Positions 8,208 through 63,607 of a stretch of 64,000 nt of DNA are shown here, piece by piece. The notes beneath the pieces were generated by a model that saw only the letters and a list, made by a program, of their open reading frames with translations, did not search any database and was not told the DNA's origin. Both the position numbers and the translations under genes were made by a program. Source of the stretch: a virus (lineage: Duplodnaviria > Caudoviricetes); IMG/VR virus record IMGVR_UViG_3300024346_000005; one strand, given 5' to 3'. Within the stretch, counting starts at the first letter, position 1. Each line of letters starts with the position of its first letter.

Positions 8208-8280
8208 GGGCGGATAATTTAATTGGTCAAAATGCTCTGCTTATAACGGAGTTATGAGGGATCATGGCCCTCTCTGCCTA
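8208..8280 (+). tRNA. tRNA-Ile(TAT)
   Basis: Cloverleaf: GGGCGGA/TCTGCCT acceptor stem, CTCTG-CTTATAA-CGGAG anticodon arm, GAGGG/CCCTC T-stem. No encoded CCA. Confidence 0.85.
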
Positions 8281-8313
8281 TTGACCATAATGACTCTTTG
8301 AGTTATAATGGTC
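8281..8313 (+). promoter_or_regulatory. sigma70 promoter embedded in a hairpin between the tRNAs
   Basis: TTGACC-17-TATAAT (8281-8309) within the inverted repeat GACCATAA...TTATAATGGTC. Confidence 0.6.
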
Positions 8314-8323
8314 TCATACACAA

Positions 8324-8405
8324 GCCCCCTTGGCGTAATTGGTAGCCGCTACGGATTTAAAATCCGTTGACTTTAGTCGTGCCGGATCGTACCCGGCAGG
8401 GGGTA
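8324..8405 (+). tRNA. tRNA-Leu(TAA)
   Basis: GCCCCCT/AGGGGGT acceptor stem, ACGGA-TTTAAAA-TCCGT anticodon arm, long variable arm, GCCGG/CCGGC T-stem. Confidence 0.88.
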
Positions 8406-8437: not shown

Positions 8438-8746
8438 ATGTCTTTCAAGTATAAAATAAGTCAGTCATACTGTTGGTATAATAACGGAAGTATGATTGTG
8501 AAAATGTACTTCATCAACGAGATTCCATTTACCTTCGATGAATTACCTGACGGGCACTTATACGACCAAGACCTCTGTAGAACGGCAGATAAGTATCGTG
8601 CATATGAACCAGATGATTTATTTAAGAACTCATTCTATCTTATAGACGAGGAAGCACACCCATTACTTTTTGATATGGACCTAGAAAACCCCCAAGACCT
8701 TCCAGATGAAGGTTATGAGTTTTTGCGGCAGGACTTATCTTCATAA
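8438..8746 (+). CDS. Hypothetical cyanophage protein
   Basis: 102-aa ORF after a TAAATA late-promoter core. Confidence 0.65.
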   Translation: MSFKYKISQSYCWYNNGSMIVKMYFINEIPFTFDELPDGHLYDQDLCRTADKYRAYEPDDLFKNSFYLIDEEAHPLLFDMDLENPQDLPDEGYEFLRQDLSS

Positions 8747-8840
8747 ATAATGGTGCTTATTCGTGGTTGTTTAGGCAAAGATTAAGGGGCAGAAATGCTC
8801 CTTTTCTTGTATAAATAAGTATAACCACGAATAAAGTAGA
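8743..8840 (+). promoter_or_regulatory. Dual late-promoter / antisense-arm / terminator cassette (copy 1)
   Basis: ATAAATA, arm GCTTATTCGTGGTTGT, hairpin GGGGC-AGAAAT-GCTCC-TTTT, TATAAATA (8810-8817), arm ATAACCACGAATAAAGT, ATG. Confidence 0.75.
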
Positions 8841-9386
8841 ATGAATAATTATTACACTTATGCATATTTGCGTGAAGATGGAACACCATATTATATCGGT
8901 AAAGGTAAAGCAGGTAGAATTAATAATACCTTACACACTATTCATCTTCCAGTAAAAGAAGAAAGAAGAATATTCTTAAAGAAAAATCTTACCGATGAAG
9001 AAGCAAGGAAGCACGAGATTTATATGATTGCTGTTTTAGGTAGAAAAGATTTAGGAACAGGAATTTTAAGAAATATGACCGATGGTGGGGAAGGTTGTGC
9101 CGGTCGTGTTTTAAGTGAAGAAACAAAAAAGAAGTTGAGTGATAGTCATAAAGGAAGAAAGAAAAGTGAGGCACACCGAAAAGCATTAAGTGAGGCGGCG
9201 AAGAAAAGAAAAGCAAGTGAAGAAACAAGAGAAAAAATGAGTAAAGTTTTTATGGGAGAAAATAATCCGTCTTTTGGGAAAAAGTGGTGGAATAATGGTG
9301 TAGAAAATAAACTCTGTAAAGAATGTCCCGGTGAAGAATATGTTTTAGGATTTCTGAACAAGTATTGGATGAATAAACATAAATAA
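8841..9386 (+). CDS. GIY-YIG (Seg-like) homing endonuclease with NUMOD3 repeats
   Basis: '[19 protein letters not shown]', 'GILRNMTDGGEG' and 'LSEETKKKLS' repeats. Confidence 0.85.
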   Translation: MNNYYTYAYLREDGTPYYIGKGKAGRINNTLHTIHLPVKEERRIFLKKNLTDEEARKHEIYMIAVLGRKDLGTGILRNMTDGGEGCAGRVLSEETKKKLSDSHKGRKKSEAHRKALSEAAKKRKASEETREKMSKVFMGENNPSFGKKWWNNGVENKLCKECPGEEYVLGFLNKYWMNKHK

Positions 9387-17025: not shown

Positions 17026-17134
17026 TTGACAGAATACTCATAATACTGCTAGACTAGGTTTGTCCCCGTTGAAGATGAGACTTTAATCCACTTAAAGAAC
17101 CGTCCACTGGGGGTCTTCACAGGACCCCTTTTTT
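17026..17134 (+). ncRNA. Possible short promoter-terminator transcription unit (~70 nt)
   Basis: TTGACA-18-TAGACT, then a GGGGTC-TTCACA-GGACCCC-T6 terminator with no substantial ORF between them. Confidence 0.4.
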
Positions 17135-17178
17135 GTTGTATAATTATATAAATAATAATATGGTAGGTTTCGCCACTT

Positions 17179-17721
17179 ATGTATTATACTTACGCATATC
17201 TAAGAGAAGATAAGACTCCATATTATATTGGTAGAGGAAAACATCATTCTGGATACAAATATCATAGAATGACTCAAAAACATACTTGCGGTATACCTCC
17301 ACAAGAAAGAAGATTAATCTTAAAAGATAATCTATCAAAAGAGCAAGCAATCAAACACGAAGAATATATGATTGACTTGTTTGGTTTAGTTTGGGATGAA
17401 ACTGGGGTATTAAGAAATCACGTTAGAGATAGTCGTGGTGGTAGTTGCAAAGGTAGAAAGCTTTCAGAGGAAACTAAACAAAAAATATCTGCTGCTATGA
17501 AAAATAAATGGCAAAGTGGTCTTTATGATACTGATGAATATAGAAATAAAATATCAGAAAGTAATAGAAAAAATCCAAGAGTCAAACAACATAGTGAAGA
17601 AACAAAAGAAAAACAAAAAAAGGCAAGCACCGGAAGACCTCAAAGCGAAGAGACTAAGCAAAAAAGGTCTGAAAGTATAAAAAGGTGGTGGACAGAAAAA
17701 AAACTGGCACAAGACCCTTGA
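17179..17721 (+). CDS. GIY-YIG/NUMOD3 homing endonuclease
   Basis: '[19 protein letters not shown]' and NUMOD3 repeats; TATAAATA at 17147-17154. Confidence 0.85.
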   Translation: MYYTYAYLREDKTPYYIGRGKHHSGYKYHRMTQKHTCGIPPQERRLILKDNLSKEQAIKHEEYMIDLFGLVWDETGVLRNHVRDSRGGSCKGRKLSEETKQKISAAMKNKWQSGLYDTDEYRNKISESNRKNPRVKQHSEETKEKQKKASTGRPQSEETKQKRSESIKRWWTEKKLAQDP

Positions 17722-24431: not shown

Positions 24432-24517
24432 TGATGCTTATTTGTGGTTATTTAAGCAGAATGGGGGCAGAAATGCTCCTTTCCTTGTATAAATAACTAT
24501 AACCACAAGTAAAGCAG
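24424..24517 (+). promoter_or_regulatory. Dual late-promoter / antisense-arm / terminator cassette (copy 2)
   Basis: ATAAATA, GCTTATTTGTGGTTAT, GGGGC/GCTCC hairpin, TATAAATA (24488-24495), ATAACCACAAGTAAAGC. Confidence 0.75.
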
Positions 24518-25118
24518 ATGGAATATTATACTTACGCTTATTTGCGTGAAGACGGCACACCTTATTATATTGGAAGGGGAAAGCATCAAAAAAAAATCAA
24601 AATATAGAAGAATGAACACTAAATTTGGTCATAGTGTTTCTGTTCCAAATGAAAAAAGAAGAATTATACTAAAAGATAATCTTTCTCTTAACGATGCTAA
24701 TAAACACGAAATTTATATGATTTTCATTTTCGGTAAAAAATATGACGGAACAGGTATATTGAGAAATCTTGTAGATGGTGGAACTGGTGGAGGTGTTGCT
24801 GGTAGAAAATTAAGTGAAGAAACAAAAAATAAAATAGGAAATGCAAATAGAGGTAAAACTCGTTCAGAAGAACATAGAAGAAAAAATGGTGAAGCAAAAA
24901 AAGGTAACACTAATTGGTTAGGTAAAACTCATTCAGAAGAAACTAAAGAAAAAATAAGAAATGTCCATAAAGGAAAACCATTTCCAGGAACTCATAATAA
25001 TAATAAAGAAACAAAATGGTGGAATGATGGACAAATTAACAAAAGAAGTGTAGAATGTCCTGGTAAAGAATGGAAATCTGGAAGATTACCATTAAAACCC
25101 TATAAAAAGAGAAAATAA
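24518..25118 (+). pseudogene. GIY-YIG/NUMOD3 endonuclease frameshifted at an A9 tract
   Basis: ATG at 24518 reads [24 protein letters not shown], then A9 (24588-24596). The rest of the protein is in the +1 frame; A8 would restore it. Confidence 0.8.
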
Positions 25119-27449: not shown

Positions 27450-28292
27450 ATGATTAAACCACCTCTCAAGTGGGCAGGAAACAAGTTTAGGGTCTTGCCC
27501 CATCTTTTACCTTTAATTGGAACACCCACCAGATATTGTGAACCTTTTGGTGGAAGTCTGTCTGTAGCACTAAACGTACAGGCATATGAATATATTCTAA
27601 ATGACATTAATTCAGATCTGCATTCTCTTTATACAAATATTGATATTGAGTTTGTTTCTGATTGTGCCAAGATATTTGTGGACGATAATAATACAAGACA
27701 AAGGTATATTGAAATTAGGAATAAGTTTAATTCCGAGACTGATGCCAGAGAGAGAGCTAAACTGTTCTTATACTTGAACAAACACGCCTTTAATGGTCTC
27801 TGTCGTTATAATTCTAAAGGTGAGTTTAATGTTCCCTATGGTAAGGAGAACAAGAACTCAAAGACTGGGGTAATAGAAAATACAAAGGCACACTTTCCCG
27901 AAAAAGAAATGTTGGACTTTATTGCCACATTTAATAATAGATGTGTTGAATTTACCAATACCACATTCTCCAACGAATTACTGTATGAATCTTTAGGAGA
28001 GGGTGATGTTGTTTACTTTGACCCTCCCTATGTTCCCACATCTGAGACTTCTAACTTTACCAATTATGCAACAGATGGATTTACTCACGAACAACAGATT
28101 GAATTGAGAGATTTAGCAGAAACTCTGGCAAATCGTGGAATTAAGGTGATACTTTCTAATCACGATGTTCCCGTTACAAGAGAACTTTATAAAAATGCCA
28201 AAATCCATTCAATTCAGGTGTCAAGGTCCATTTCTGCAAAGAGTTCTAGCAGAAAAAAAGCAAGTGAACTGATTGCCGTGTGGCAGTCCTGA
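27450..28292 (+). CDS. dam: Dam-family (D12 class) DNA adenine methyltransferase
   Basis: 'LKWAGNK', 'EPFGG', 'LNDIN', 'FNGLCRYNSKGEFNVPYG' and 'YFDPPY'. Confidence 0.92.
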   Translation: MIKPPLKWAGNKFRVLPHLLPLIGTPTRYCEPFGGSLSVALNVQAYEYILNDINSDLHSLYTNIDIEFVSDCAKIFVDDNNTRQRYIEIRNKFNSETDARERAKLFLYLNKHAFNGLCRYNSKGEFNVPYGKENKNSKTGVIENTKAHFPEKEMLDFIATFNNRCVEFTNTTFSNELLYESLGEGDVVYFDPPYVPTSETSNFTNYATDGFTHEQQIELRDLAETLANRGIKVILSNHDVPVTRELYKNAKIHSIQVSRSISAKSSSRKKASELIAVWQS

Positions 28293-28383
28293 AACTGGCA
28301 CAAGACCCCCCGAATCCCCTGGTGGATGCCCTATAATTACAGAGTAAACAATCGAATTGACGGCAATCGTCAGAAAAACTGTT

Positions 28384-37823: not shown

Positions 37824-37982
37824 TGAAAATTGATATTACAATAGAAGATTATGGTATAATTATAAATGCTCTACACTATTATAAGAAAGTAGAGAAGAAA
37901 GGAAACTTTCAGCAGTATGATGACGAAAGAATTAATTCCTTGAGAGACAAACTCTCGCACCAAATTATATGGAACAAAATGA

Positions 37983-38090
37983 ATAAATAATGATGCTCTA
38001 ATGTGTTCGCATCCATAAGAGTGGGAAGGGTGTCTTCGGGCACCTTTTCTTGTATAAATAGTATTGCGAACACAATTTAGAAGCAGAACT
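37983..38090 (+). promoter_or_regulatory. Dual late-promoter / antisense-arm / terminator cassette (copy 3)
   Basis: ATAAATA, GCTCTAATGTGTTCGCAT, GGTGTC-TTCG-GGCACC-TTTT, TATAAATA (38053-38060), TTGCGAACACAATTTAGAAGC. Confidence 0.78.
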
Positions 38091-38786
38091 ATGGTAAATC
38101 CTAATAGGTTTTATACTTACGCATATTTGCGTGAAGATAAGACACCTTATTATATTGGTAAAGGTAAAGGTAATAGGGCATATAAAAAGCATCGAAAAGG
38201 AATAGGTGTCCCAAAAGATAAATCGAGAATTATATTCCTCAAACAAAACTTAACCGAAGAAGAAGCATTTAGACACGAAATCTATATGATTGCTGTTTTT
38301 GGTAGGAAAGATTTGAGAACTGGTATTCTTCACAACCTTACAGATGGTGGTGATGGTGCTTCTGGATGGGTTCCAAGTGAAGAAACTAAAAGAAAACAAA
38401 GTGAAGTGAAAAAAGGTAATACTTATATGTTAGGTAAAACTCTTTCAGAAGAAACCAAAAGAAAAATGAGTGATACGCGAAAAGGTAAAACTCATTCAGA
38501 AGAAACGAAAAGAAAACAAAGTGAGGTAAAGAAGGGTAAAACTTATTCGGAAGAAGCAAAAAGAAAAATGAGTGAGGCACATAAAGGTAAAACTCTTTCA
38601 GAAGAAACCAGAAGAAAAATGAGTGAGATACGAAAAGGTAAAACTCATTCAGAAGAAACTAAAAGAAAACAAAGTGAGGTAAAGAAGGGTAAAACTAAAG
38701 GTAAAAAGTGGTGGAATGATGGTTGTGGAAATTGTAAAAGGATGGTAGAATGTCCCGGTGATGGTTGGAGACTTGGAAGAAAATGA
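38091..38786 (+). CDS. GIY-YIG endonuclease with multiple NUMOD3 repeats
   Basis: '[19 protein letters not shown]', about six '(H/L)SEETKRK(M/Q)SE.KKG' repeats and a 'KWWNDG...CPG' C-terminus. Confidence 0.88.
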
Positions 38787-42385: not shown

Positions 42386-42440
42386 TATAAATAAAAATGC
42401 TTATGTGTGTCGTAACCAGAAGCAACGAGTAGCATAAGGA
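42386..42440 (+). ncRNA. Orphan late-promoter / sRNA-like half cassette
   Basis: TATAAATA then ATGCTTATGTGTGTCGT..., like the start of the endonuclease cassettes, but with no endonuclease downstream. Confidence 0.4.
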
Positions 42441-42664
42441 CACTTTCCAAACAGGCACAAGGGCACTTTACAGGTGCCTTTTTTTGATGTATGATACTTT
42501 CATACACAAAGGAACCCGATGACTGACAAACAAAAGATTCAATCCAAACTTAATGTATTGCACGAAGAGTTTGATACTCTTCAATCTCTTGGTGCAACGC
42601 ATAGTGAATTGAATGCGGTGCGGAGGGAGTTAAACATTTACTATGAAATGTTGAGGAAACTACG

Positions 42665-45600: not shown

Positions 45601-48600
45601 CATTACATCGGTGTGAGAAATGACTAATCCACTAATTGAAAAATATAATGAAATTCACAATCCAAAACCACCAGAGCCTCCAAAACCAGTAGAGAAACCA
45701 AAACCACGAAAACTCGCAAAATGTTATGACCGTGATGACTTGAAAGTATCTTTTCAACAAGTAGCAGATAAAATCCAACAAGGAAAAGCACAGGTTGCGA
45801 GTATGAGTATGGAAAGGGATGTAATGAGTATTATGCCTAATAAAATTATCTTTGAGGTTTATGTGGATGACTTATAAAGATAAAGACATTATAAGATTAG
45901 CAAGACACTGGGGAGCAACAGAAACCTACACTAGCATGATTTTTGAAACAATCCTTGAGGAACAGAGGACACTTGAGAAACTGGCACAGACACCCTCCAC
46001 AGGGGCACCAGATGCCCTATAATACATTCATACACAAGACAAACTCCAAATGACTATTGAAATCACAAACCAAGTTCGTATTCAAGAATACGGAGATTAT
46101 TGGTATACGGTAGAAGACACTCATATTGATGTGGGATGCGATGGATGCACCATTTCTTATTGGCAGTTTGATAAAGAAAAAGGAGATAAACGAATTCAAC
46201 ATATTTGTATGGGAAATGTAGAAGCACTTGCTGTTGCTGATGCCATCTACAAACTCTTCAAGGTGAACTGAAATGACTAAACACGAGATTGGTGAAACAA
46301 TTGGATTTTATATTTTTGTGGGATTGATGGGTTGGGCACTTGTGTCTTTCTTTCCTCTTACTTGGGGACAGGCACTCATAATCTCTTGGATGTTTAACAA
46401 ACTTATTGATGTATTAGAATGACTACCAAACTCGTTGATGATTATGTGAATTTCATTATGGATAGTATGTCTCAACAAATCAAAGAAGAAATGCTTTATG
46501 AGTATTTGGTGAATGACTATAAGGATTTGAGTGAGGAAGAACTCACTCAACAAATCCTTGAAATCTATGGTGATGAATGGTTTAAGGAGAACACCTGAAA
46601 TGAACTACCTCTGCCTTGTTGATGGTCTTGTAGAATATGGTAGCACCAGTTTGAGTGATTTTGCTCACTATCAACTGGTGTATGCCGAAGAACACCAAGA
46701 TGCTGATGTTCAGTATCTCACACTGACTGATGAAGAGTATGAATCTATGTTTCCTGTGGAGGATGAAGATAATGGATAAAGAAGAACTCACAATACTTTT
46801 TATTATTCTTGGAATACTTCTACTTTTCGCAATCCTTAACGGATTTGTTGTGAATTATGAGAAAACAGAATGTTTGAAAGAAGGTGGAAAGTGGGTTTCT
46901 GGTATGATTGCTGGTAATTATTCTTATTTCTGTGTGCCGAAATGACTAAAGAACAAATCCTGGAAGTTGCTGATGAGTTCCTTGAAGAATGGGAAGCAGA
47001 AGAGGATGGAAAAACTTGGGTAGAATATAGTGGAACTGCTCAAGAAATCATTTATTTTGCTCAACAAATTCGTAGAGATACACTTTATGAAATCATTCAC
47101 CTACTCTCAAATGTTCCTAATCCTCAAGCAAACCAAACAGCAATCAATCGTATTGAAATGGAGTTGAACTGATGAAAAAACAAGAACTCAAAGAACTTCT
47201 CACACCAGAGTTTCTATCAACTCTTCATACTGCTGTGGAGTGTTGTAATTGGAATGCGGATATGATTGAAACTATGGAGTTTTGTGATTGGTGCTATAAT
47301 ATGGCAGGACAACCAAAACCACAGTATGATATGGGTGTTGAGGGATATGACTGAACGACTAAAATTCACACAAGTATCCAGAGTAATCTGCCCCAAGACA
47401 GGTATTCATTATTTGGATGCGATTGATGAGTATGGGAACCACTGGACGGCACAACAGGAAACTAGTGTAGAAAAATGGATTACATATAAACAACTTTGGA
47501 CACAAGACCCTCAACAACCCGTAAAACTATGCCTGAAACCGACATCTCAAAAATTCTCATAGAAGGAGACACCGTAACCATTATGGGGGTTAGGTATCAA
47601 CGTATCATAGAACCTCAAAGTTTTTATGATAAACTCTATGGATTGCTAGACGATAATCTTATTGAATGGGTTGATACAGACGGTATTACTATTAGAGTAC
47701 TGGATTTGATTAGGGAGAATATTCCTGAATATAAAAAAGGTGTTGGACTACCAGAGTATAATGCTGGTTGGAATGACGCAATCAAAACACTCAAGGATAA
47801 ACTACGATGACTAAAAACTACCCTATAAATGACTGGGAGTTTGTTGATGAGATTGAAACATTCTTCAACGAATGGTTTTATTCCAATCATACTGACTATT
47901 CTTTCAAAAACGAATACTTTTATGGAGATTGTGCCGTTGAAGACCCAAAGACCCGTGAAGACCTAATGAGAAAATGGATATATGCGAGTTTTTATTCCGG
48001 TTTTATGATGGGACGATGTGCTAAAATGGAGAAGGAAGTAAATGAGAATTGAAATCACACAAGACATCAGTGGAACTGGTGATTATCGGTGGGAACTCTA
48101 TACTGGCCCTGAACATATTGATGAATATGTTGGATACTGTTATAGTTTGGGAGAATGTTTTGAGAAGATTGTAATGTGGAATACTTACAACGCACAAAAG
48201 TATTATGGAGGAACGGAAAATGATTAACGAAGAAAAACTCACTCTTCTTCTTGGAGTTCTCAAAACATACGCAGAACAAAAACACTGCTATGATGGTAAA
48301 GGTGGTGGAGATTACTATTATCTCCCCGAAAATAGTGATGATGCCTTTGAGGATGGTGCTGATTATGGTGAAATCCTCTTTGCCCGCACTCTATTAGAAC
48401 AAATCGGTGAAAAGTTTGAATACCCTTGTATGAAAGAAAATGAACGAAATTGAAAAAACAGAGGGAGAAATAAAAGTCCTTCAAGCAAAATTAGAACTTC
48501 TCAAAGAAATGGAGAAGCACAAATCACCAGCAGAAGAGGCATTCAAAAGAGTTTATTGTAGGTATCCTGATAAACTTGATGATAAATATGGTTCTGCTTG

Positions 48601-49635: not shown

Positions 49636-52600
49636 ATGAAAAACCATCAGTTCAAACCACAAATCTGTTTATGGAAACGAAAAGAACTAACCCTCAAATG
49701 TTGGATTTTTCGTTTTCTCACTCCTGTTGCCGGACTACTTGATGCTCTCGTCACAATTTGTTCTTTCACTATTCTAGTAAGCAACTTTGAGATGGAGGTG
49801 GTTACACTTCACACATACGAATACTTCAAAGCACTTAAAAAACAACGAACACAAAGGAACTCCAAATGACCGAACAAGAACTTATTGAACTCTGGGGAGA
49901 TGGAAGTGAGTTTGGTCTTTCTCCTAATGATGAACTGTTTATGAACAACGCATTTCGTGAGGTTGCTGTGAAGTTTGCTCTTGTAGTTGCCGATAAAGCA
50001 TATGGTGATGGAGTAAAGGTAGTTGCTGGTAAAGCATATAGTGTTGGTTATCGTGAAGGTTATGATAGTGTATATTTTTCATACGCGAGTAATTGACTTA
50101 TGAGTATTCTATCTTGGAACCACACCAGAAAAGGAACTCCAATGAAACAATCTGGGAGTTATGGTTCTCTTATGATTAGGGTGATGATGGTTAGGAGTTC
50201 TTATCCAAATCACCCTATGTTTATTGACGGAAACCCTGTATAATACTCTTACAAACACAAACACATTATGACTGCTCTTTATTTTGAATCCGAAGACGGA
50301 ACTCAATTTGATACTGCCATTTTTGATGGTTATCTTGTTGGAGACCGAATTCTTGAAGGTGTTAGGTTTATCGTGAAGATTGAAGATGGGAAACTTCATC
50401 CCACTATTCATCCTGATGATGCCGGATACTTTTCTACTCTGAATCAAAAGTATTGGATGGACAAAGTGACTGAATATGCTCAAGATTATGATGTATTTTC
50501 TCATCCTCAAAATAGAGAAGATGTTTATCTTGTGACTGATGAAACTCCCGAACCAGTTGTAGGAGTTGTTGGTAAAGCATACACTTGGGAAGAAGTCCTT
50601 CAAAAAGCAAAAGAACCAAAATGCGGGGTGATTGAGTATCTCAAAGCATTCAATTCATTATTTGAGGACAACTGAAATGAACCCAATCAAAATCGGTAAA
50701 CTGAAAATCGGCATTTTTGAAAGTTTGCTCTTTCTTTTTATTTGTGCTAAACTAACTCACACTATTGATTGGAGTTGGATTTGGGTATTGTCTCCCGGTT
50801 GGATTGCCTTTTCTATTGGAGCATTTGAAGGACTTACTGAATACTTTGAGAAACAAAAAAACAAATGACTGAACGCAACCTTACGAAACAACTTCAATAT
50901 TATGTCTATAATGACCCAGAATACGGGGAGGACATAGAAAATATTTCTTATCCTGCTTTGATTGAAATTATTGACGATTTGTATGATAAAATTGAGACAC
51001 TTGAAAGAGACAACGAACTCCTGAAATCTTATGCGTGGGAACGATGACTGATGCCCAAATATGCGAAATGGTTAATATGCACCGATACCTTATGATGTGT
51101 GAGATTAAACACGCATTTCATAAATTTTGTGCTGAAAATGGGAACCAAGATTACAGTGCTGCCAATCGTTCAGAAGCATTCAACGATACAAAATGGATTG
51201 AATTTGCTAAATGGTTCAAGGATATAAGAGATGAGTGAAGAATATGGGAATATTCCAGACGGGTTTCTACTATCTCAAAGTGAAATTGATGAATTGAGAA
51301 AATCAAAAAGAGAACTCACGGATTATGCTAAACAAAAATTGAAAGAACTTATAGAAAAACAGGAGGCACAAAATGATTGACTTATTCAACAAACTACTTA
51401 CCCGATTTGGGTTTCGGTTAGTTTCCAAAGAAGAACCTCATAAAGAAGAACGATGTTTCTTGGATGATATTACATCTCCAGAGTTTATTCAAAAACATCC
51501 AGAGTTTTTAGATAGGTATGTAGAAGGACAAAAGAATAAATCTCTTTATGCTGGAGTCATCAACTATCTTGAAGATAAGGATGGAAGAACTTATTATCAA
51601 GATAGTCGTAGTAAAAACTACTTCTGTGATTATGATGTTAAAAATCCATCTAAAGAAGTATTGGGTCTTATGATTACAGAAACCAAATTTACACCAGAAG
51701 AACTTGCGGAGAAACTGAATGACTGAAACAGCACAAAAAATTATAGCAGCAGCACGAAATGTTGCCGAAGGTTCTCCTACTTTGGGGAAACTTATTCGTG
51801 AGGGTAGAGACCCTATGATTACTAAAACTTATTATGAGTATGCTGCCGTATTGAGAACATTAGCAGAAGAACTTGGATATAATAACTTCAATATTGATGG
51901 AGACCACGGAATTAATGTCGTAAATGTAAAAGACATTCTTAAACTTGTTGATGAATTGGAGAACTTATGACTGACCCTACACTTGATGAAATGATTGAAG
52001 AAGCAGCACGGAGAGAAAGAAGTAATCGTATTCTTCAACGGTATAATGATTTCCATAATCTTGAAACTTCTGGACTTTCTTGGGGAACACCCGTAACGAT
52101 GGAACAGCAACAAATTATCGCATTTCAGTCTATGATTGATGCTCTCCGTTGTGAAAACCTCAATCAAGAATACACTCATATCGCAATTAGTGATATTGAG
52201 GACTTGATTGAGGCACTTTATCAACAATCAATTTCATTCCTTGAAAAAGTAAAAGAATTCAAAGATAGTGCGGAGGGTGTAGCATAATGTTATCACCAGC
52301 AGACCGAATTATAGAAGCAACGATGCCTCATACTCTGCGACCTAAAAGAGGAAACAGAGAGAAAGTAATTGCTGCTGCTCTGGAGTTTGTTATACTGGAA
52401 TATTCATATACTGATGGTGAGGGTGAAGATCTCATAGATGTAAGAGATTTACAGGAACTCATTAAAGAACTTCGGGAGACTGTGACACTTGAGACACTGG
52501 CACAAGACCCCACCAATCCCCCTGTGGATGCCCTATAATAGTCTCATAAGCACAAACACATTATGTCTCTTGATATTTCGTTGGAAATTGAAGTTGATAC

Positions 52601-52913: not shown

Positions 52914-52981
52914 GGACAGCACAGACCCCCTCCACAGGGGCACCAGATGCCCTATAATAGTCTCATACACACAGAAACCTG

Positions 52982-53482
52982 ATGAACATCAACGGATACG
53001 AAATCAAACCCTTTGCTAACCTTAAAGGTGCTGACCTTTGGGGTGCTAACCTTCGGGATGCTAACCTTAAGGGTGCTAACCTTGAGGGTGCCGACCTTGA
53101 GGGTGCTAACCTTGTGGGTGCTGACCTTGAGGATGCTAACCTTCGGGGTGCTAACCTTGAGGGTGCTGACCTTAAGGGTGCTAACCTTGTGGGTGCCGAC
53201 CTTCGGGATGCTAACCTTCAGGGTGCTTACCTTGAGGGTGCTGACCTTGAGGATGCTAACCTTAGGTATGCTAACCTTAAGGGTGCTGACCTTAAGGGTG
53301 CTAACCTTGAGGGTGCTAACCTTGAGGGTGCTAACCTTGTGGGTGCTAACGTAACTGGAACCATTCTTGAGAAGAAAGAAGTTCTTCAAGATGATAAAGA
53401 CCTCAAGATTAAAGAACTTGAGGAAGAAAATGAGAAACTTAAATCTACACTTAAGTCTCTTAAGGCACTGTTGGACACCTGA
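52982..53482 (+). CDS. Pentapeptide-repeat protein with C-terminal coiled coil
   Basis: More than 20 tandem A(N/D)LxG repeats. Confidence 0.92.
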
Positions 53483-53553: not shown

Positions 53554-55749
53554 ATGACTTTTCAACCTTACAATATCGTTCCCGGAACTCAAATTGTTCA
53601 TAATTTGACCGATGTTTATGAACTCACCGATGAAGCAGAGGAAATGGTTTATCGTGTAGAACTAAATGCTGATAATGGTGGAATTTACATTCGTTCAAGT
53701 GAAAAAGGACTTGAAGAAGGTTCTAAAAACATCACCGAAGATATGTCTATCGGCAACAAAGAACTTTCCATTTGTGTTGCCCGTCGTATTCTTGAACTTT
53801 ATTCTGTAAACTAAAATGAAAATCACATTCAACGGGCACCAACAAACTGAACGACAAGTAGAACTCACTCAACAAGAACTTTTTCAACTCTTTGAGCTGA
53901 TGAAGGAATCACTTCTTGATAATGTTGAGTACGGGCAATTTGACGGATACTCTTTTTACAACGAAAAGACTATGAAGATTATGAAACTCTGTGAGACACA
54001 TAATGTAGATGTTGCTTATACCAAAGACCGTCTTGCTTTCTTTACTGAAATCATCAAAAATCTACCCAATCCTTATCAATGAATACTACAACTCCAATAC
54101 CCACAAAGTCGGGGCACATATTTTATGTGGTGATGCAGAAACGAAAAGATGGTGAAATCTATGTGGATTTACATAAAACCACAGAGAAAATCTATCTTCT
54201 TGAAGAGGACGCAGAATACGCACTAAATGAACTTGGATTTATCAAAGACCATTGCCATATTGTAAAACTGGTTGCTTATTTGTATGACTCAAGAGAATGA
54301 AAGAATTACCAATGACTGAAATAAAATTATGTAAGGATTGTAAGCACTATAAAAAAGATTGGTCTGCTCATATTACTGGTTCTGGGGACACATTTGATTT
54401 GTGCTTACATCCACTTATAACTGGAAATGTTGTGACTGGAAAAACTGATGGTCGTTATTGTGATGCTACAAGAAGGTTTCGCGAATGTGGTATGGAAGGA
54501 AAACTCTGGGAAGCAAAATGACTGAAAGACTTACCAATCCTGATGAGTTTGTGTTGGAAGATGTGAAGATGGTTCACTGGGAAAATATGGATACTGATGT
54601 ATATTGGTGTGGAATATACTTGAATGATGGAAGGATATTTCACCTTCATATTGGGGGTGATAATCTCAGGGTTTCTTTGAGTGATGAGACACCTGACGAA
54701 CTGGCACAAGAGCATCCCACTGATGCCCCTTGATGCCCTATAATAGTCTCATACGCAATTCGCAAACAGCAAATGAACATTACTATGAAACAATTCTTTG
54801 ATATGGTTGCGAAAACTATTGCGGAACCTCATACCATAATCACCGAGCACGATAAACGCAGAGCAATTCGTGTGTTTCTTTATCTTGATGAATTTATGAT
54901 GGAGAATGTGCCCGAGTATTGTGGTGATACAGAGTTAGGTGAGATTGACTTTGGTTCTTATGCTGCTGGTGTTTTAGATGAAATTGAAGGAAAATGACTG
55001 AAACAGAAAAACTCTACAAAATCTGTATTCTTGATTTGCTTATAGCAATTGATGATGATGTTGTGGATTGGAGAGACTATCCTAAACTCTGGACCGCAAT
55101 TCAAAAAGCAGATATTGCCCTTGATATTTGGGCAGGAATGAACCTCAAACAAATCAAACAGGAACTGGAAGGAAAATGACTTACAAACAACTCTCTCCTG
55201 CCGCACAGGCAGTGTCAAATGCCGCTAAATCAAGCCTGGATTGGTCGGCCGGATACCTACCAAATGCTGCTGCCGCCGCTGCCCTCCGTGCTGCTGTTGC
55301 TCACACACAACGATACCGGGAGTGTGACGCAGATGAACTCCTTGCCATCGCAAACGAACTGGAAGGAAAATGAAGACTTGGATTGAAGATGCTTATTGGC
55401 ACTGGCGTAATGTATTCTATTTCAGATTTTACGAGTATAATGACAACATAGACAGACTGGCATTTTTTGAGGAACTAAACTATGGTTGGTATCAAATGTA
55501 TTATGATAGTGAGGAATGGGAATGACTTGGAAAGAATACTGGAAAATGACTAAATGTGAGTGGTTTATTGAGGGTTTCCGCAACATCTCATACATCATAT
55601 CTTGTTATAATACTCCAGAACCTTATGGTTATGATGACTTCTGGGAGTCTCTCAGTTGGGGTTGGTGTTGTGAATATGTCTATCCTTATGATGACCCTTA
55701 CAATCCATACATATCAGAAGAACGCAAACTACGATTAGGAAGATGGTGA
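53554..55749 (+). other. Cluster of hypothetical ORFs (53554-53814, 53816-54082, 54079-54300, 54297-54521, 54518-54733, 54773-54997, 54994-55179, 55176-55373, 55516-55749)
   Basis: Co-directional short ORFs. Confidence 0.65.
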
Positions 55750-55853
55750 ATAAATAATAATGCTCTAATGAGTTCGCATCCATAAGAGTGGAAAAGGTGC
55801 ATTTTGGCACCTTTTCTTGTATAAATAGTATTGCGAACTCAATTTAGAAGCAG
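55750..55853 (+). promoter_or_regulatory. Dual late-promoter / antisense-arm / terminator cassette (copy 4)
   Basis: ATAAATA, GCTCTAATGAGTTCGCAT, AAAAGGTGC/GCACCTTTT hairpin, TATAAATA (55820-55827), TTGCGAACTCAATTTAGAAGC. Confidence 0.78.
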
Positions 55854-56600
55854 ATGTATTACTACACTTACGCATATTTGCGTGAAGATAAGACACCTTA
55901 TTATGTTGGTAAAGGAACTGGAGGAAGAATTTATTCCACCAATAGAAAAGGACTAAAACCACCAAAAGATAAATCAAGAATAATATTCCTAAAACAAAAC
56001 CTATCAGAACAAGAAGCATTCAGGCACGAAATTTATATGATTGCTATCTTCGGAAGAAAGGATTTAGGAACTGGTATTCTTCATAATAGAACTAATGGTG
56101 GTGAAGGTGCTTCTGGCACTATTAAAAGTGAAGAAACCAGAAGAAAGATTGGTGAAGCAAAGAAAGGTAAAAATAATCCCCAATACGGTAAACGAGGTAA
56201 GAATTCTCATAATTATGGGAAATCTCCTTCTGAAGAAACCAGAAAAAAATTAAGTGAGAGGCAGAAAGGTGAAAAAAATCATAATTATGAAAAATCTCCT
56301 TCTGAAGAAACCAGAAAAAGAATGAGTGAGGCACAGAAAGGTGAAAATAATGCTATGTACGGTAAATCACGTTCAGAAGAAAGCAGAAGAAAACAGAGTG
56401 AAGCACTTAAAGGTAAATATAGTGGAGAAAAACACTATCTTTACGGCAAATCACCTTCAGAAGAAACTAAAAGAAAAATAGGTGAGGCAAATAAAGATAA
56501 AAAATGGTGGAACGATGGCAAAGGAAATACTAAATTTACTGAAGAATGTCCCGGAGAAAATTGGGTTCGTGGTCGTGGAAAAAAACTATGTGACACCTGA
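55854..56600 (+). CDS. GIY-YIG endonuclease with NUMOD3 repeats
   Basis: '[19 protein letters not shown]', 'GILHNRTNGGEG' and 'SEETR(R/K)K' repeats. Confidence 0.88.
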   Translation: MYYYTYAYLREDKTPYYVGKGTGGRIYSTNRKGLKPPKDKSRIIFLKQNLSEQEAFRHEIYMIAIFGRKDLGTGILHNRTNGGEGASGTIKSEETRRKIGEAKKGKNNPQYGKRGKNSHNYGKSPSEETRKKLSERQKGEKNHNYEKSPSEETRKRMSEAQKGENNAMYGKSRSEESRRKQSEALKGKYSGEKHYLYGKSPSEETKRKIGEANKDKKWWNDGKGNTKFTEECPGENWVRGRGKKLCDT

Positions 56601-56629
56601 CGAACTGGCACAAGGAGACTTGATTTTTA

Positions 56630-57010
56630 TTGAGATTTTGGTATAATATCTGTATTACAAGGAGAATGATGGACTTTCCCATATTTCTAAACAAACTTAT
56701 AATCGGCAACAAGTATCTTCGGCACACCAGTTTTTGGTATTGGTTTCGTCTTACTAACCATTCTAATTGGAGAATGGACGACCATCAAAGATACTGGGAC
56801 TTCTGGTATTCTATCAACTCTGGATGGTGTGATATGGAGTATGATTGGGAGTTTGAGAAGTTCTGGGGTAAAGGTGCCAAAGCAGAGCAGATTGTACTAC
56901 ACCGAGAAGATTATGATGCTATTGTAGAAATGTTGAATGAACCTCCAAATGCTGCTATAATGGAGAGGTTGAAAGAACTTATGAATCGTAAAGCACCTTG
57001 GGATGAGTAG
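56630..57010 (+). CDS. Hypothetical Trp-rich cyanophage protein
   Basis: ORF after a dyad promoter; true start is probably near 56666. Confidence 0.6.
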   Translation: MRFWYNICITRRMMDFPIFLNKLIIGNKYLRHTSFWYWFRLTNHSNWRMDDHQRYWDFWYSINSGWCDMEYDWEFEKFWGKGAKAEQIVLHREDYDAIVEMLNEPPNAAIMERLKELMNRKAPWDE

Positions 57011-61039: not shown

Positions 61040-62670
61040 ATGAAACTCTTCGTCGCTAAGTTCTACCAAACTCTGATTCTAAATGTTGCTACCATCGCCG
61101 CAATCGTTGTTGGAATTGTACAATTTGGCATTCGTGCTTATAAAGAAAACAACGGCGCAGAAAAGACCCGCAAGGTGATTCAAACCGTGCTGCGGTTCGT
61201 TGATACTATTGTGGGGCAATTGCAGGCATTCGTTGATACTGATGTGCCAGTTGTAAAGGTGGCACCGAAAACTACCAAACGCCGCTGATTGGTGGTATTC
61301 TACTTTCATACCTGAGGAATTCATGAAACAAACTCATCGGTTCGTTACATTTAAAGAGGCACTTGTGTTTCTAATGAATGAGTTGCAATTGAGTAATCAG
61401 GAGGCAACACATTTCATTTGGGACAATCAGTTTACTATGGGAACTGATCGGGCAATTTGGATTACTATGCCAATCTGAGAACTGTCACAAGGGGGGTTGC
61501 GGTTCCCCCCAAAACCTGATATTCTACTTTCATACCTGAGAAATTCAATGGTTTTCGTCATCTCCGAACTCAACGGTTGCACTTACAAACTGGACGCAAA
61601 CAATCAGCGGGTCCTAATGTATGCTCCGCTGCTATCTGATGGTTCATATGAAACTGCAGGGTCGGCATATGATTGGGTAGAGTGGGACCGTTTAGACCCT
61701 GATGTTCTAGAAGAAGCAGACCGTATTCACAAACTGTTGCTCGCAGAGGTGTAATTATGAACTACGATAATTTCTGGAAGAACGTATTAGGGCAGGAAGA
61801 TTGGGTTAATGAACTAGTCAAATGGGAGAATGCTCATCCAGAGTATACACCCTTTCAAGAAGATAAAGACTCTCAACGCCAACAAAACACCAAACAAATC
61901 TAGATGACAACTTTTCTCACCAAAGCACAACGCCAAATCTTGATTGATTGGTATATTGACTGCCTGATTGATACTGAGTCTGAGTTTGTTGATGGTAGTG
62001 AAGAAGCAGAGCGTCAAAGTTTGGCATCGATGAATAACTCTTACTTCTATGAGTACGTTCAGGAGATGATGCCTAACTGTATGGAAGACCTTGCGAAAAT
62101 GAAACAGGATATGACAGTCTGACTAGTGGCACAAGGGGGGTTGCGGTTCCCCCCAAAACCTGTTATTCTACATTCATACCAAACAAATCCAAATGAAAAT
62201 TATCTGCTCCAAACCTAATGCTAAGGGTGGATATCACGATGTTGGTATGACTCACCGTAGGTTGACTGGTGATTATTCAACCGTACGTAACTTCATTCGT
62301 TATGGTGTACCTAGTGACTTCTATGGTAACACTCTGCGGTTGGAAGTCTTCTACGGTGAGAATATCTATCGGGCACCAGATAAAGTGTTGTATGTGACAG
62401 TCTAGAAAGTGTCACAAGGGGGGTTGCGGTTCCCCCCAAAACCTGTTATTCTACATTCGTACTCAAGCAATTCACCAAATGACATTCGACCGAGCACAAC
62501 TAGTTGAAGATTACATTCAACAACTTATTGAGGGTATGGATTATAAAACTATGGAGTGTCTGGTTTATGATACTCTGAAGGATAATCTCTCGGATTATAC
62601 TGATGAGCAACTCATCACAGAGGTTACAGAATACAATCCAGAACTGTTGGAGGATGTGCCAGTGGCATAA
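61040..62670 (+). other. Single-gene early cassettes (61040-61288, ~61548-61754, 61904-62122, 62193-62405, 62479-62670)
   Basis: Most ORFs are directly preceded by their own dyad plus TATTCT promoter. Confidence 0.7.
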
Positions 62671-62740
62671 GTGGCACAAGACCCCTAGACTTCCTGCCTC
62701 AATCCTGTTATTCTACATTCATACTCAAGCAATTCACCAA

Positions 62741-63163
62741 ATGACTATCACGATGACTGCCAACTACAAAGAAGTTCTGAAACTGGAAACTGTTGAGTTC
62801 ATTGAAGAGAACTGTGTTGAAGGTGAGTATGATTTAGATGATGCTCTCAAGTTCATTGATGAGCACAATGAGGATGACTTCGTGGCATATTATGATGAGT
62901 ATGTTCGTGTTGGTGAGATTCTGGGTTATGATGTAGTTGATGCCTTTATTGAATATCACGGTGGTGTTTCGTATGTTGAGCACGTAGAAGAAGCATACCG
63001 TGGAGTGTATAGTTCCGAAGCAGACTTTACCGAAGACTTCTATAACGAAGTCTATGGTGATGTTCCCTCTATGTTGGTTGTAGATTGGGAGGCAACTTGG
63101 CAGCAGAATCTATCATATGACTTTGACTTCGTGAATGGTTATGTGTTTAGTTCTTCGTTCTAA
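62741..63163 (+). CDS. ArdA-like antirestriction (DNA-mimic) protein
   Basis: Highly acidic; C-terminus 'YRGVYSSEADFTEDFY...LVVDWEATWQQNLSYDFDFVNGYVF' resembles the ArdA family. Confidence 0.65.
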   Translation: MTITMTANYKEVLKLETVEFIEENCVEGEYDLDDALKFIDEHNEDDFVAYYDEYVRVGEILGYDVVDAFIEYHGGVSYVEHVEEAYRGVYSSEADFTEDFYNEVYGDVPSMLVVDWEATWQQNLSYDFDFVNGYVFSSSF

Positions 63164-63607
63164 AGTATTCAACTCAACTCTAAATCCTTTACATTCTTTT
63201 CCTGTTCCTACGATAAGGTACATTCTCGATTTTGATACATTATGTTCTTTCGAAAACTTATGCAAATTGTCAGTTTCTGCATAACACCTTCCATCCTTGA
63301 ATATCTTATAGATAATTCCTAAATTACCTTTTGCGTGATGATTATTGTATGTCTCATTACACCACTCCAAGTTTGAAATGTTATTATTTGTTTTGTCCTT
63401 ATCAATATGATTAACTTGAGGCAAATTATCTGGATTTGGAATAAAGGTTTCTGCAACTAATCTATGAACTAACCTACTCATCCCATTAACTTTCATTTTT
63501 AAATAACCTTTAGGACAAACATATGATTTTAAATAGTTTCCTTTTTTTCCTATCACTTTTCCATCTTTTGTGATATAATAACCTTTATGTACCGGATGCT
63601 CTAACAT
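63113..63607 (-). CDS. NUMOD4-HNH homing endonuclease
   Basis: 'YYITKDGKV', 'VHRLVAETFIPNPDNLPQVNHIDKDKTNNNISNLEWC'. Confidence 0.9.
   Translation of the reverse strand: MLEHPVHKGYYITKDGKVIGKKGNYLKSYVCPKGYLKMKVNGMSRLVHRLVAETFIPNPDNLPQVNHIDKDKTNNNISNLEWCNETYNNHHAKGNLGIIYKIFKDGRCYAETDNLHKFSKEHNVSKSRMYLIVGTGKECKGFRVELNTLERRTKHITIHEVKVI

What the first reader, a model, noticed from the sequence alone, without database searches (positions are those of the whole stretch)
8743..9386. GIY-YIG endonuclease cassettes with a built-in cognate antisense-RNA module (candidate undescribed control system)
Seen: four GIY-YIG genes (8841, 24518, 38091, 55854) share a roughly 100-bp upstream architecture. It runs: late-promoter core ATAAATA at or overlapping the previous gene's stop codon; a 16-18-nt arm; a GC hairpin plus T-run (intrinsic terminator); a second late promoter TATAAATA; then a 5' leader that is the reverse complement of the first arm, ending 2-6 nt before the ATG. 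Known: T4 I-TevI is silenced by an RBS-sequestering hairpin with a late promoter inside it. Inference: the extra upstream promoter and terminator would release a discrete ~50-nt sRNA complementary to almost the whole leader of the nuclease mRNA. That resembles a type-I toxin-antitoxin-like, cognate-specific repressor travelling with a mobile nuclease. Alternatives are read-through attenuation or a DNA-level hairpin marking a mobile end.
Basis: partly seen in the sequence, partly recalled or inferred. Interest (0 to 1): 0.85.

Follow-up and report, generated by a model that had tools for sequence, protein, structure and literature searches.

The report
Portable leader module of phage homing-endonuclease genes
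Four nuclease genes in this cyanophage-like genome each carry the same roughly 100-base control module (promoter box, arm, terminator, second promoter, complementary arm), a more elaborate form of the known phage T4 trick for keeping selfish nucleases untranslated, which may also release a small antisense RNA.

Summary
All four sites carry the same order of parts: an ATAAATA box (P1), arm 1, a GC hairpin with T-run, TATAAATA (P2), arm 2, then ATG. A covariance model finds exactly these four copies in the window.

The module is widespread. At least 90 distinct copies occur in IMG/VR contigs and six in the cultured Synechococcus phage S-SRM01. It precedes several GIY-YIG subfamilies and HNH-like homing endonucleases.

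Pairing of arm 1 with arm 2 covaries strongly: 23 of 24 pairs change on both sides.

The basic principle is known. A late promoter nested inside a helix that masks the translation start is described for T4 I-TevI, segB and Aeh1 mobE. Dassa et al. 2009 saw such hairpins in marine metagenomes.

Four things seem not to have been described:
- a terminator sits between the arms;
- the upstream late-promoter box is invariant (92 of 93 copies), lies at the very 5' edge, and at two insertion sites is brought in by the cassette;
- the predicted start of a P1 transcript is a purine at the first base of arm 1;
- a covarying 5' hairpin displays the core of arm 1 in its loop.

These features fit a discrete RNA of about 55 nt that is complementary to the leader. 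No transcript data exist, so action in trans is unproven. The toxin-antitoxin analogy and strict cognate specificity are not supported.

The parts
8743..8749 (+). Site 1, P1: late-promoter-type box ATAAATA. It holds the TAA stop of ORF 8438-8746. Predicted +1 is G8755.
   Evidence: An empty allele joins 8741 to 9378 across a 9-letter repeat.
8754..8777 (+). Site 1, arm 1 (8754-8770) and its local 5' hairpin SL1
8784..8808 (+). Site 1, GC hairpin plus T-run (intrinsic-terminator type)
8810..8817 (+). Site 1, P2: TATAAATA late promoter between the arms. Predicted +1 is A8823.
8821..8838 (+). Site 1, arm 2: the leader complementary to arm 1, ending 2 nt before the ATG
8841..9386 (+). Site 1, homing-endonuclease gene (GIY-YIG-like N domain plus NUMOD3), 181 aa
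24423..24520 (+). Site 2, whole module: P1 24424-24430, arm 1 24435-24454, terminator 24463-24480, P2 24488-24495, arm 2 24499-24516, ATG 24518. The gene behind it is frameshifted at A9 (24588-24596) and continues to 25118.
37982..38093 (+). Site 3, whole module: P1 37983-37989, arm 1 37994-38011, terminator 38023-38050, P2 38053-38060, arm 2 38065-38084, ATG 38091
   Evidence: The empty allele lacks the box.
38091..38786 (+). Site 3, homing-endonuclease gene, 231 aa. Its TGA stop overlaps the ATG of the next gene (ATGA).
55749..55856 (+). Site 4, whole module: P1 55750-55756, arm 1 55761-55778, terminator 55790-55817, P2 55820-55827, arm 2 55832-55851, ATG 55854
   Evidence: Empty alleles lack the box.
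55854..56600 (+). Site 4, homing-endonuclease gene, 248 aa. An early-promoter-type repeat follows at 56588-56650 and serves the next gene.
17110..17721 (+). Fifth paralogue (ORF 17179-17721) with a terminator hairpin and TATAAATA (17147-17154) but no arm 1. Its orthologues elsewhere carry a simple hairpin with the late promoter in the loop.

Best explanation
This is a portable 5' control module of free-standing homing-endonuclease genes in T4-like cyanophages (Kyanoviridae-type). Arm 1 base-pairs with the whole leader of the nuclease mRNA (arm 2, including a purine-rich AGAG/AAAG stretch 5-10 nt before the ATG) and so blocks ribosome access.

**Shown**
- The pairing is real, at RNA level and strand-specific.
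- The module travels with nucleases of several families.
- The 5' box is part of the module.

**Inferred from fold energies and from the T4 precedent (I-TevI, segB, Aeh1 mobE)**
- Any transcript that starts upstream of P2 and passes the internal terminator carries both arms and is translationally locked.
- Only transcripts that start at the nested late promoter P2 lack arm 1 and are open.
- The terminator insulates the nuclease gene from outside transcription.

**Inferred, not shown**
- The module's own late-promoter box P1 starts an RNA at the first base of arm 1, and this RNA ends at the terminator.
- The result would be a 52-60-nt RNA of two hairpins, with the core of arm 1 in the loop of the first.
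- This RNA can pair in trans with the 5' end of the P2 mRNA (about -22 kcal/mol, against about -7 for its own hairpin). That would put a threshold on nuclease translation late in infection.

I rate the lock acting in cis at about 0.85. I rate production of the short RNA at about 0.65 and a functional effect in trans at about 0.45.
For: **Pairing of the arms**
- Across 94 copies, 23 of 24 model pairs change on both sides.
- The covariation score is 0.572, against 0.225 for shuffles (0 of 500 reach it) and 0.10-0.15 when the partners are slid.
- Cognate arm duplexes average -22.3 kcal/mol, non-cognate ones -8.6.
- 136 of 2162 cells are G-U pairs, and the minus strand scores 24 bits against 100. 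So the helix is RNA on the + strand.

**P2 and the open mRNA**
- TATAAATA lies between the arms in every copy.
- The RNA that starts at P2 is unstructured (-11.6 kcal/mol, z -1.2).

**P1**
- TAAATA is present in 92 of 93 modules, preceded only by A (71) or C (21). Both forms are described late-promoter variants of T4-like phages (PMC1524935, PMC2984593).
- In the window, ATAAATA occurs 21 times on the + strand and never on the - strand. The G/C/T-TAAATA variants show no such bias.
- Other genes here use N-ATAAATA 20-25 nt before their ATG.
- Empty alleles of sites 3 and 4 have no box, so the cassette carries it.
- Relatives that lack the internal terminator also lack P1.

**The short RNA**
- The 5' hairpin SL1 is cognate-specific: -6.49 kcal/mol against -3.47 +/- 0.35 for permuted partners, 0 of 2000, using one representative for each of 33 arm types.
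- SL1 plus the terminator is the minimum-energy fold in 90 of 90 copies.

**Generality**
- 83 of 95 sites found by DNA pattern alone have P1 and arms. They precede GIY-YIG, other GIY-YIG-like and HNH-like ORFs.
- Six copies stand before six different nuclease ORFs in the cultured phage S-SRM01.
Against: - No transcript 5' or 3' ends are available. The RNA libraries held only assembled contigs of relatives. One contig starts at 8755 (predicted P1 +1) and one at 8826 (P2 +1 is 8823), but assembly branch points explain these equally well.
- At site 1 the empty allele already has a late box at the junction. There, P1 could be the resident promoter of the tail-fibre gene.
- On the model-fitted alignment SL1 is less clean than the long helix: 61.5% of cells are paired.
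- P1 and P2 are both late promoters, so a repressor made at the same time as its target has no obvious timing role.
- Two related architectures work without P1: a simple hairpin, and arm 1 held in a large hairpin loop. The lock in cis alone is therefore sufficient in close relatives.
Confidence: 0.5

Rival explanations
1. The module is a lock acting in cis only, of the I-TevI/segB/mobE type, with an added insulating terminator. P1 has no RNA-level role. It persists because it marks the 5' end of the mobile DNA (short homology with resident late boxes) or because it supplies a stop codon to the upstream gene. The short transcript is a by-product.
For: - The mechanism is established for T4-type homing-endonuclease genes (PMC2988022). 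It was proposed for marine metagenomic ones with TATAAATA inside the hairpin (PMC2677866).
- Relatives without P1 keep the arms around the late promoter.
- Site 1 is flanked by a 9-nt repeat that contains the box.
- The stop codon of the upstream ORF lies inside the box in 37 of 76 cases and at +4 in 12.
Against: - It does not explain why a module built to shut out upstream transcription carries a perfect late box of its own into sites that had none.
- It does not explain why that box is as invariant as P2 while the arms diverge completely.
- It does not explain why the tail after arm 1 covaries to form SL1.
- In about a third of cases the upstream stop lies before the box.
- Stops in all three frames are rare, 14 of 92.
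- 3' ends carry a late box in only 18 of 89 cassettes, so recombination between two boxes is not general.
Confidence: 0.3
2. Transcription from P1 regulates P2 at the DNA level, not through RNA pairing. Polymerases that start at P1 and stop at the T-run, which abuts the P2 box, occlude initiation at P2 or hand over to it.
For: - The T-run ends 0-3 nt before TATAAATA in nearly all copies, as the conserved string CTTTTCTTG-TATAAATA.
- The P1-to-P2 distance is tightly distributed, mostly 61-73 nt.
Against: - It gives no reason for the arm 1:arm 2 covariation or for SL1.
- A terminator followed directly by a late promoter is a generic junction in T-even phages.
Confidence: 0.07
3. The inverted repeat works as DNA: as a cruciform, a recombination hot spot, or an operator for the nuclease itself (as I-TevI binds an operator over its late promoter).
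For: - I-TevI autorepression through an operator that overlaps its late promoter is known (PMC2988022).
- The arms flank P2.
Against: - Frequent G-U pairs would be A-C mismatches on the other strand, and the model score is strongly asymmetric between strands.
- Unrelated nuclease families share the module, which argues against a protein-specific operator.
- The arms lie about 50 bp apart.
Confidence: 0.03
4. It is a type I toxin-antitoxin-like addiction module: an unstable antisense RNA holds a toxic nuclease in check and stabilises the cassette.
For: Only the analogy: a potentially harmful nuclease with a complementary RNA encoded next to it.
Against: - The 'toxin' is a 181-248-aa site-specific nuclease, not a small membrane peptide.
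- A lytic phage has no post-segregational setting.
- Nothing is known about relative RNA stability.
- The site 2 gene is frameshifted yet its module is intact.
Confidence: 0.03

Closest known systems
Translational-repression hairpins with a nested late promoter in T4-type phages (I-TevI, I-TevII, I-TevIII, segB, Aeh1 mobE; also genes e, soc, 49), as reviewed in PMC2988022
   Same: An RNA helix covers the translation start of a homing-endonuclease gene. A late promoter lies between the two arms, so that late transcripts lack the 5' arm. Several layers of control stand on one selfish nuclease gene.
   Different: Here the arms are about 50 nt apart and enclose an intrinsic terminator. An invariant second late-promoter box sits immediately 5' of arm 1. 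Arm 1 has its own covarying hairpin. One module serves many nuclease families and insertion sites.
Hairpins in the 5' UTRs of free-standing GIY-YIG and Vsr-like endonuclease genes in marine metagenomes (Dassa et al. 2009, PMC2677866)
   Same: The setting is the same: uncultured marine phage-like DNA and free-standing nuclease genes. TATAAATA lies inside the hairpin, and two conserved motifs complement each other in the stem. This is very likely the same or a sister family.
   Different: That paper reads them as simple translational hairpins of the mobE type. Its text does not mention an internal terminator, an upstream promoter box, a 5' hairpin or a short RNA. I could not compare sequences, because the figures are not held.
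IS10 RNA-OUT / RNA-IN antisense control of transposase (from my own knowledge, not tested here)
   Same: If the reading in trans holds: a stem-loop RNA whose loop meets the free 5' end of the mobile element's enzyme mRNA, with the duplex covering the ribosome binding site.
   Different: RNA-OUT is transcribed from the opposite strand across the same DNA. Here the anti-leader is a same-strand inverted repeat upstream, with its own promoter and terminator.
PeSL composite terminator/early-promoter cassettes of T4-like phages (PMC2839356, PMC4122927)
   Same: A short, conserved terminator-plus-promoter unit recurs at the borders of mobile gene modules. PeSL-like repeats are also abundant in this window.
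   Different: PeSLs carry sigma-70-type early promoters and are proposed to act as recombination sites. This module carries late boxes and an anti-leader helix.
CfrI antisense RNA of cyanophage S-PM2 (Millard et al. 2010, cited in PMC2984593)
   Same: A non-coding RNA associated with a homing-endonuclease gene in a T4-like cyanophage.
   Different: CfrI is about 225 nt and is transcribed antisense across the endonuclease gene and psbA. It has no sequence or architectural relation to this module.

Membership tests
T4-type nested-late-promoter translational hairpin (I-TevI/segB/mobE class) | A stable RNA helix includes the ribosome binding region or start of the nuclease gene | tested here: met
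   The helix ends 0-8 nt before the ATG and covers the purine-rich stretch. Folds have z -3.8 to -6.5, and there is covariation in 94 copies.
T4-type nested-late-promoter translational hairpin (I-TevI/segB/mobE class) | A late promoter lies between the arms, so that the late transcript lacks the 5' arm | tested here: met
   TATAAATA is invariant between the arms. Its predicted +1 lies at the first or second base of arm 2. The start site is predicted from the T4 rule (PMC1524935), not measured.
T4-type nested-late-promoter translational hairpin (I-TevI/segB/mobE class) | The inhibitory structure forms on long transcripts that read in from upstream promoters | tested here: inconclusive
   An intrinsic-terminator-type hairpin with T-run stands between the arms, so only read-through transcripts would carry both. 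The efficiency of termination is unknown.
Type I toxin-antitoxin system | The toxin is a small, usually membrane-active peptide whose mRNA is stable | tested here: not met
   The products are 181-248-aa nucleases with NUMOD3 repeats.
Type I toxin-antitoxin system | An unstable antisense RNA with its own promoter neutralises the toxin mRNA | not testable with these tools
   A promoter box and terminator are present. There are no expression or stability data.
Antisense control of the IS10 RNA-OUT type | The antisense RNA is transcribed from the opposite strand over the 5' end of the target mRNA | tested here: not met
   Both arms lie on the + strand, 50 nt apart. The minus strand scores only 24 bits.
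Antisense control of the IS10 RNA-OUT type | The loop of a stem-loop RNA is complementary to the free 5' end of the mRNA | tested here: met
   In 90 of 90 predicted short RNAs the arm 1 core lies mostly (69%) unpaired in the SL1 loop. It is complementary to the first bases of the predicted P2 mRNA. This is a prediction only.
PeSL (promoter-early stem-loop) | A stem-loop terminator fused to a sigma-70-type early promoter | tested here: not met
   The promoter after the hairpin is TATAAATA, not TTGACA/TATAAT.
Any Rfam family | A match to a curated covariance model | tested here: not met
   Only two tRNAs reach the gathering score in the window. Nothing matches the module or its variants at E<=0.1.
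GIY-YIG nuclease superfamily (the gene product) | GIY and YIG motifs, a conserved Arg, Glu and Asn, and the three-stranded sheet fold | tested here: inconclusive
   Y4-T5-Y6, Y16-Y17-I-G19, R25, E59 and N78 are invariant or nearly so in 41 sequences. TIGR01453 matches at E 6e-15 to 2e-6 but below its cutoff. The AF2 model has pLDDT 80, and its best Foldseek hits are GIY-YIG domains (UvrC, PD-T4-3) at E 0.02-0.3 and TM 0.43-0.55. There is no Pfam PF01541 hit.

The most novel reading that the evidence does not exclude
The module encodes a same-strand, tandemly placed antisense RNA. It would be about 55 nt, run from P1 to the terminator, and consist of a 5' hairpin displaying the anti-leader plus the terminator hairpin. 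It would travel with homing-endonuclease genes of several nuclease families and titrate the leader of the nuclease mRNA in trans. That would be a self-contained expression governor which lets selfish nucleases settle anywhere in a phage genome. The same arm would lock read-through transcripts in cis.
Probability: 0.45. Interest if true: 0.8.

Novelty: new variant of a known kind. Interest (0 to 1): 0.6.

Why it matters
Homing-endonuclease genes are the main selfish elements of large phages. How they avoid harming their carrier is only partly understood, and what is known comes mostly from T4 itself.

This module shows that in cyanophage-type myoviruses one compact, portable control unit is shared by unrelated nuclease families and moves with them. 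It inserts into late regions, early regions and gene junctions. It brings its own promoters and terminator, and at some sites, such as site 4, a promoter for the next host gene.

If the short RNA is real and acts in trans, it would be an antisense regulator encoded as an upstream inverted repeat rather than on the opposite strand. I know of no such design described for phage mobile elements.

The element is easy to annotate with the covariance model. It marks nuclease genes that are currently misannotated, for example as 'translation initiation factor 2' in S-SRM01. It also occurs six times in a cultured phage-host pair, so the hypothesis can be tested directly.

Tried and rejected
1. **Chance or simple repeat.** Rejected on fold z-scores, model hits and covariation.
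2. **Known RNA family.** There is no Rfam match.
3. **The 5' box as a universal stop in all three frames.** Only 14 of 92 modules have stops in all three frames.
4. **Cassette bounded by late boxes at both ends (box-to-box recombination as the general mode of movement).** Only 18 of 89 have a box near the 3' end. It does hold for site 1.
5. **P1 as a resident host promoter at every site.** Rejected for sites 3 and 4, whose empty alleles have no box.
6. **Specific to GIY-YIG genes.** Rejected, because HNH-like and other nuclease ORFs follow the same module.
7. **Strict cognate specificity.** Rejected within subfamilies.
8. **RNA-seq evidence.**
   - Only metatranscriptome contigs of relatives were available, and contigs cannot show starts or ends.
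   - No whole genome is held for the window.
   - No close cultured relative exists: the best is S-SRM01 at 73% nucleotide identity.
9. **Consensus fold of SL1 on the plain MAFFT alignment.** It gave no structure because the columns are out of register. Per-sequence tests and a second model were used instead.
10. **Sequence search of solved structures with the nuclease.** It gave nothing meaningful.
Full report
**1. What is in the window**

- an ATAAATA box (P1), at or beside the stop codon of the upstream ORF;
- after 5 nt, an arm of 17-20 nt;
- a short A/G-rich tract;
- a GC-rich hairpin followed by a T-run;
- immediately after that, TATAAATA (P2);
- after about 5 nt, the reverse complement of the arm;
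- the ATG, 0-8 nt later.

If the RNA is taken from just after P1 to the start codon, it folds into a long outer helix (arm 1:arm 2) that encloses the terminator hairpin. Free energies are -31 to -39 kcal/mol and z-scores are -3.8 to -6.5, with none of 200 shuffles as stable. An RNA that begins at the predicted P2 start is essentially unstructured.

The sites fall into two subfamilies, 8841/24518 and 38091/55854. Their arms are unrelated in sequence, but each pair differs by compensatory changes.

There is also a fifth paralogous gene at 17179. It has a terminator and TATAAATA but no arm 1. The gene at 24518 is broken by a frameshift at an A9 run.

**2. The gene products**

- They match NUMOD3 and PHROG homing-endonuclease families.
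- They match the I-TevI-type family TIGR01453 below its cutoff.
- The GIY and YIG motifs, an Arg, a Glu and an Asn are invariant or nearly so.
- An AlphaFold model (pLDDT 80) finds GIY-YIG domains as its best, though weak, fold matches.

I accept them as GIY-YIG-type homing endonucleases, while noting that the Pfam model itself does not match.

**3. How widespread the module is**

With three of the paralogues as queries, 240 loci were fetched from IMG/VR.
- Of 179 distinct upstream regions, 126 have a late box 8-50 nt before the ATG.
- Of these, 93 carry the full module.
- A covariance model (R1) finds exactly the four copies in the window and 94 copies in 87 sources.

A search by DNA pattern alone, using the T-run plus P2 and no protein, gave 95 distinct sites.
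- 83 of them have both the upstream box and complementary arms.
- 59 of the 95 sites precede close GIY-YIG paralogues.
- The rest precede other GIY-YIG-like proteins and HNH-like proteins that match PHROG homing-endonuclease families.

The cultured freshwater Synechococcus phage S-SRM01 (Kyanoviridae) has six copies in front of six different nuclease ORFs. Some of these are annotated as 'translation initiation factor 2'. The module is therefore a general leader of homing-endonuclease genes, not a GIY-YIG peculiarity.

**4. The pairing is real and is RNA**

- On the model alignment, 23 of 24 pairs show changes on both sides.
- The covariation score is 0.572, against 0.225 for shuffled partners (0 of 500) and 0.10-0.15 for slid partners.
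- 86% of cells pair, against about 43% when slid.
- Cognate arm duplexes average -22.3 kcal/mol, against -8.6 for non-cognate combinations.
- G-U pairs are frequent, and the reverse strand scores far lower. This argues against a DNA cruciform or a protein operator.

**5. What is already known**

The review of T4 mobile elements (PMC2988022) describes the principle. [quoted passage not shown] A late promoter inside the structure gives a transcript that lacks the 5' arm and is translated.

Dassa et al. 2009 (PMC2677866) reported hairpins with TATAAATA and two mutually complementary conserved motifs. They found them in the 5' UTRs of free-standing GIY-YIG and Vsr-like endonuclease genes in marine metagenomes, and read them in the same way.

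The core of the finding is thus a known kind of device. Relatives in my own sample show the classical form:
- orthologues of the 17179 gene have a simple hairpin with the late promoter in its loop;
- another group holds arm 1 in the loop of a large hairpin upstream of the promoter.

**6. What goes beyond the known form**

a. **An internal terminator.** A terminator-type hairpin with T-run lies between the arms in all copies, and it abuts P2.

b. **An invariant upstream box.**
- TAAATA is present in 92 of 93 modules and is preceded only by A (71) or C (21). The base before that is random.
- In the 90-sequence alignment the only invariant columns are this box and P2.
- ATAAATA and CTAAATA are both described late-promoter forms in T4-like phages, with the box at -12 to -6 (PMC1524935; PMC2984593).

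c. **The box looks like an active promoter signal here.** In this window ATAAATA occurs 21 times on the + strand and never on the - strand, whereas the G/C/T-TAAATA variants show no bias. Other genes have N-ATAAATA 20-25 nt before their start. The signal therefore appears to be potent wherever it stands.

d. **The predicted P1 start.** By the T4 spacing rule, the +1 of P1 is a purine in at least 92 of 94 copies and is the first base of the arm 1 helix.

e. **The box belongs to the cassette.**
- Empty alleles of site 3 (for example L369) join the upstream and downstream genes through an ATGA stop/start overlap, with no late box. In the window the inserted DNA runs from about the first A of ATAAATA to the TGA of the nuclease gene.
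- Empty alleles of site 4 likewise lack a box.
- At site 1 the empty allele, seen as a joint from 8741 to 9378 in a metatranscriptome contig of a relative, does have a box. The cassette there is flanked by a 9-letter repeat that contains it.

f. **A covarying 5' hairpin, SL1.**
- The 5' half of arm 1 also pairs with a tail just after the arm, leaving the arm core in the loop.
- With one representative for each of 33 arm types, cognate energy is -6.49 kcal/mol, against -3.47 +/- 0.35 for permuted tails (0 of 2000).
- The minimum-energy fold of the predicted P1-to-T-run RNA is SL1 plus the terminator in 90 of 90 cases.
- A second model-fitted alignment supports SL1 less cleanly, with 61.5% of cells paired.
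- The 5' half of arm 1 therefore covaries with two alternative partners. That implies the state without arm 2 is itself under selection.

g. **P1 goes with the terminator.** Relatives without the internal terminator have no P1.

**7. Reading**

The lock in cis follows from the folds and from precedent. I consider it nearly certain for any transcript that carries both arms.

The features in section 6 are not needed for that lock. Some are awkward for it: a module that shuts out upstream transcription would hardly carry a promoter of its own at its 5' edge.

They are what one expects if P1 and the terminator form a small transcription unit whose product is a compact two-hairpin RNA bearing the anti-leader. 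If that RNA is made late, alongside the P2 mRNA, pairing in trans is favoured by about 15 kcal/mol net. It would start between the SL1 loop and the free 5' end of the mRNA.

This could cap nuclease output independently of the insertion site. I put the short RNA at about 0.65 and a functional effect in trans at about 0.45.

**8. What I could not show**

No raw-read RNA data exist for this phage or for close relatives. The metatranscriptome contigs that touch the region are from relatives.

One contig starts at 8755, the predicted P1 +1, and runs through the terminator into the gene. Another starts at 8826, 3 nt after the predicted P2 +1. Contig ends can equally reflect assembly branch points at the borders of a repeated cassette, and the tool warns against reading them as RNA ends.

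**9.

- Specificity is by subfamily only. Within the window, non-cognate pairs of the same subfamily reach -13 to -17 kcal/mol, against -17 to -22 for cognate pairs.
- The toxin-antitoxin analogy does not meet that family's defining features.
- The element is not tied to GIY-YIG genes.

**10. Verdict**

This is a real, conserved and widespread RNA-level control module. It is a new and more elaborate variant of the nested-late-promoter hairpin of T4-type homing-endonuclease genes. The hypothesis of a built-in antisense small RNA is well motivated but untested. A cultured system, S-SRM01, is available to test it.

Noticed in passing
It has a terminator hairpin and TATAAATA but has lost arm 1. 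Its orthologues (L161-L165) keep a simple hairpin with the late promoter in the loop, the classical I-TevI-type arrangement.
   Followed up: partly
window 24518-25118 (A9 run at 24588-24596): The site 2 nuclease gene is out of frame after 29 codons and continues in another frame. This could be a pseudogene, a sequencing error in the homopolymer, or slippage. Its leader module is intact.
   Followed up: no
window 19702-63860, e.g. 28283-28356, 45966-46033, 52482-52549, 62109-62191: There are many copies of a repeat of about 70 nt: ACTGGCACA(A/G)G, then a GC stem-loop, then CCCTATAAT. It looks like the PeSL composite terminator/early-promoter cassettes described for T4-like phages. One copy sits at the 3' end of the site 4 nuclease gene and would serve the next gene.
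   Followed up: partly
window 37983-38786 versus L369; window 55750-56650 versus L425, L430, L432: Empty alleles define the inserts. At site 3 the cassette sits exactly in an ATGA stop/start overlap between two genes and regenerates that overlap at its own 3' end (AAAATGA repeat). At site 4 the insert also brings an early promoter and Shine-Dalgarno sequence for the downstream gene.
   Followed up: yes
window, whole: ATAAATA occurs 21 times on the + strand and never on the - strand, against about 22 expected on both strands together. This suggests strong selection against antisense late promoters.
   Followed up: partly
window 52969-53433: At least 21 tandem copies of a 15-nt unit lie inside ORF 52982-53482, giving a pentapeptide-repeat protein. 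An ORF on the opposite strand overlaps it.
   Followed up: no
L043-L079 (e.g. L050:1440-1503, L054:1440-1503, L064:800-866): More distant GIY-YIG relatives carry a different conserved leader after TATAAATA: GTG-Y-AG..CGCG....CTCTAA....AGGAG..CAGC-ATG, about 60 nt. It has a covarying stem, no Rfam match and unknown function.
   Followed up: partly
MW015081.1 (S-SRM01) 62515-63273 and other places: Homing-endonuclease genes with lysine/glutamate-rich NUMOD3 repeats are annotated as 'translation initiation factor 2' in cultured cyanophage records (S-SRM01, B3, B23, Sf-CH5).
   Followed up: partly
window 42386-42530: TATAAATA is followed by a sequence that resembles the start of arm 1 (AAAATGCTTATGTG..), a local hairpin, and then a PeSL-like terminator/early promoter. 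It may be a remnant or a relative of the first half of the module. Model R1 does not hit it.
   Followed up: no
window 8208-8405: Two tRNA genes lie just upstream of the site 1 region. In T4, segB sits in the tRNA region.
   Followed up: no
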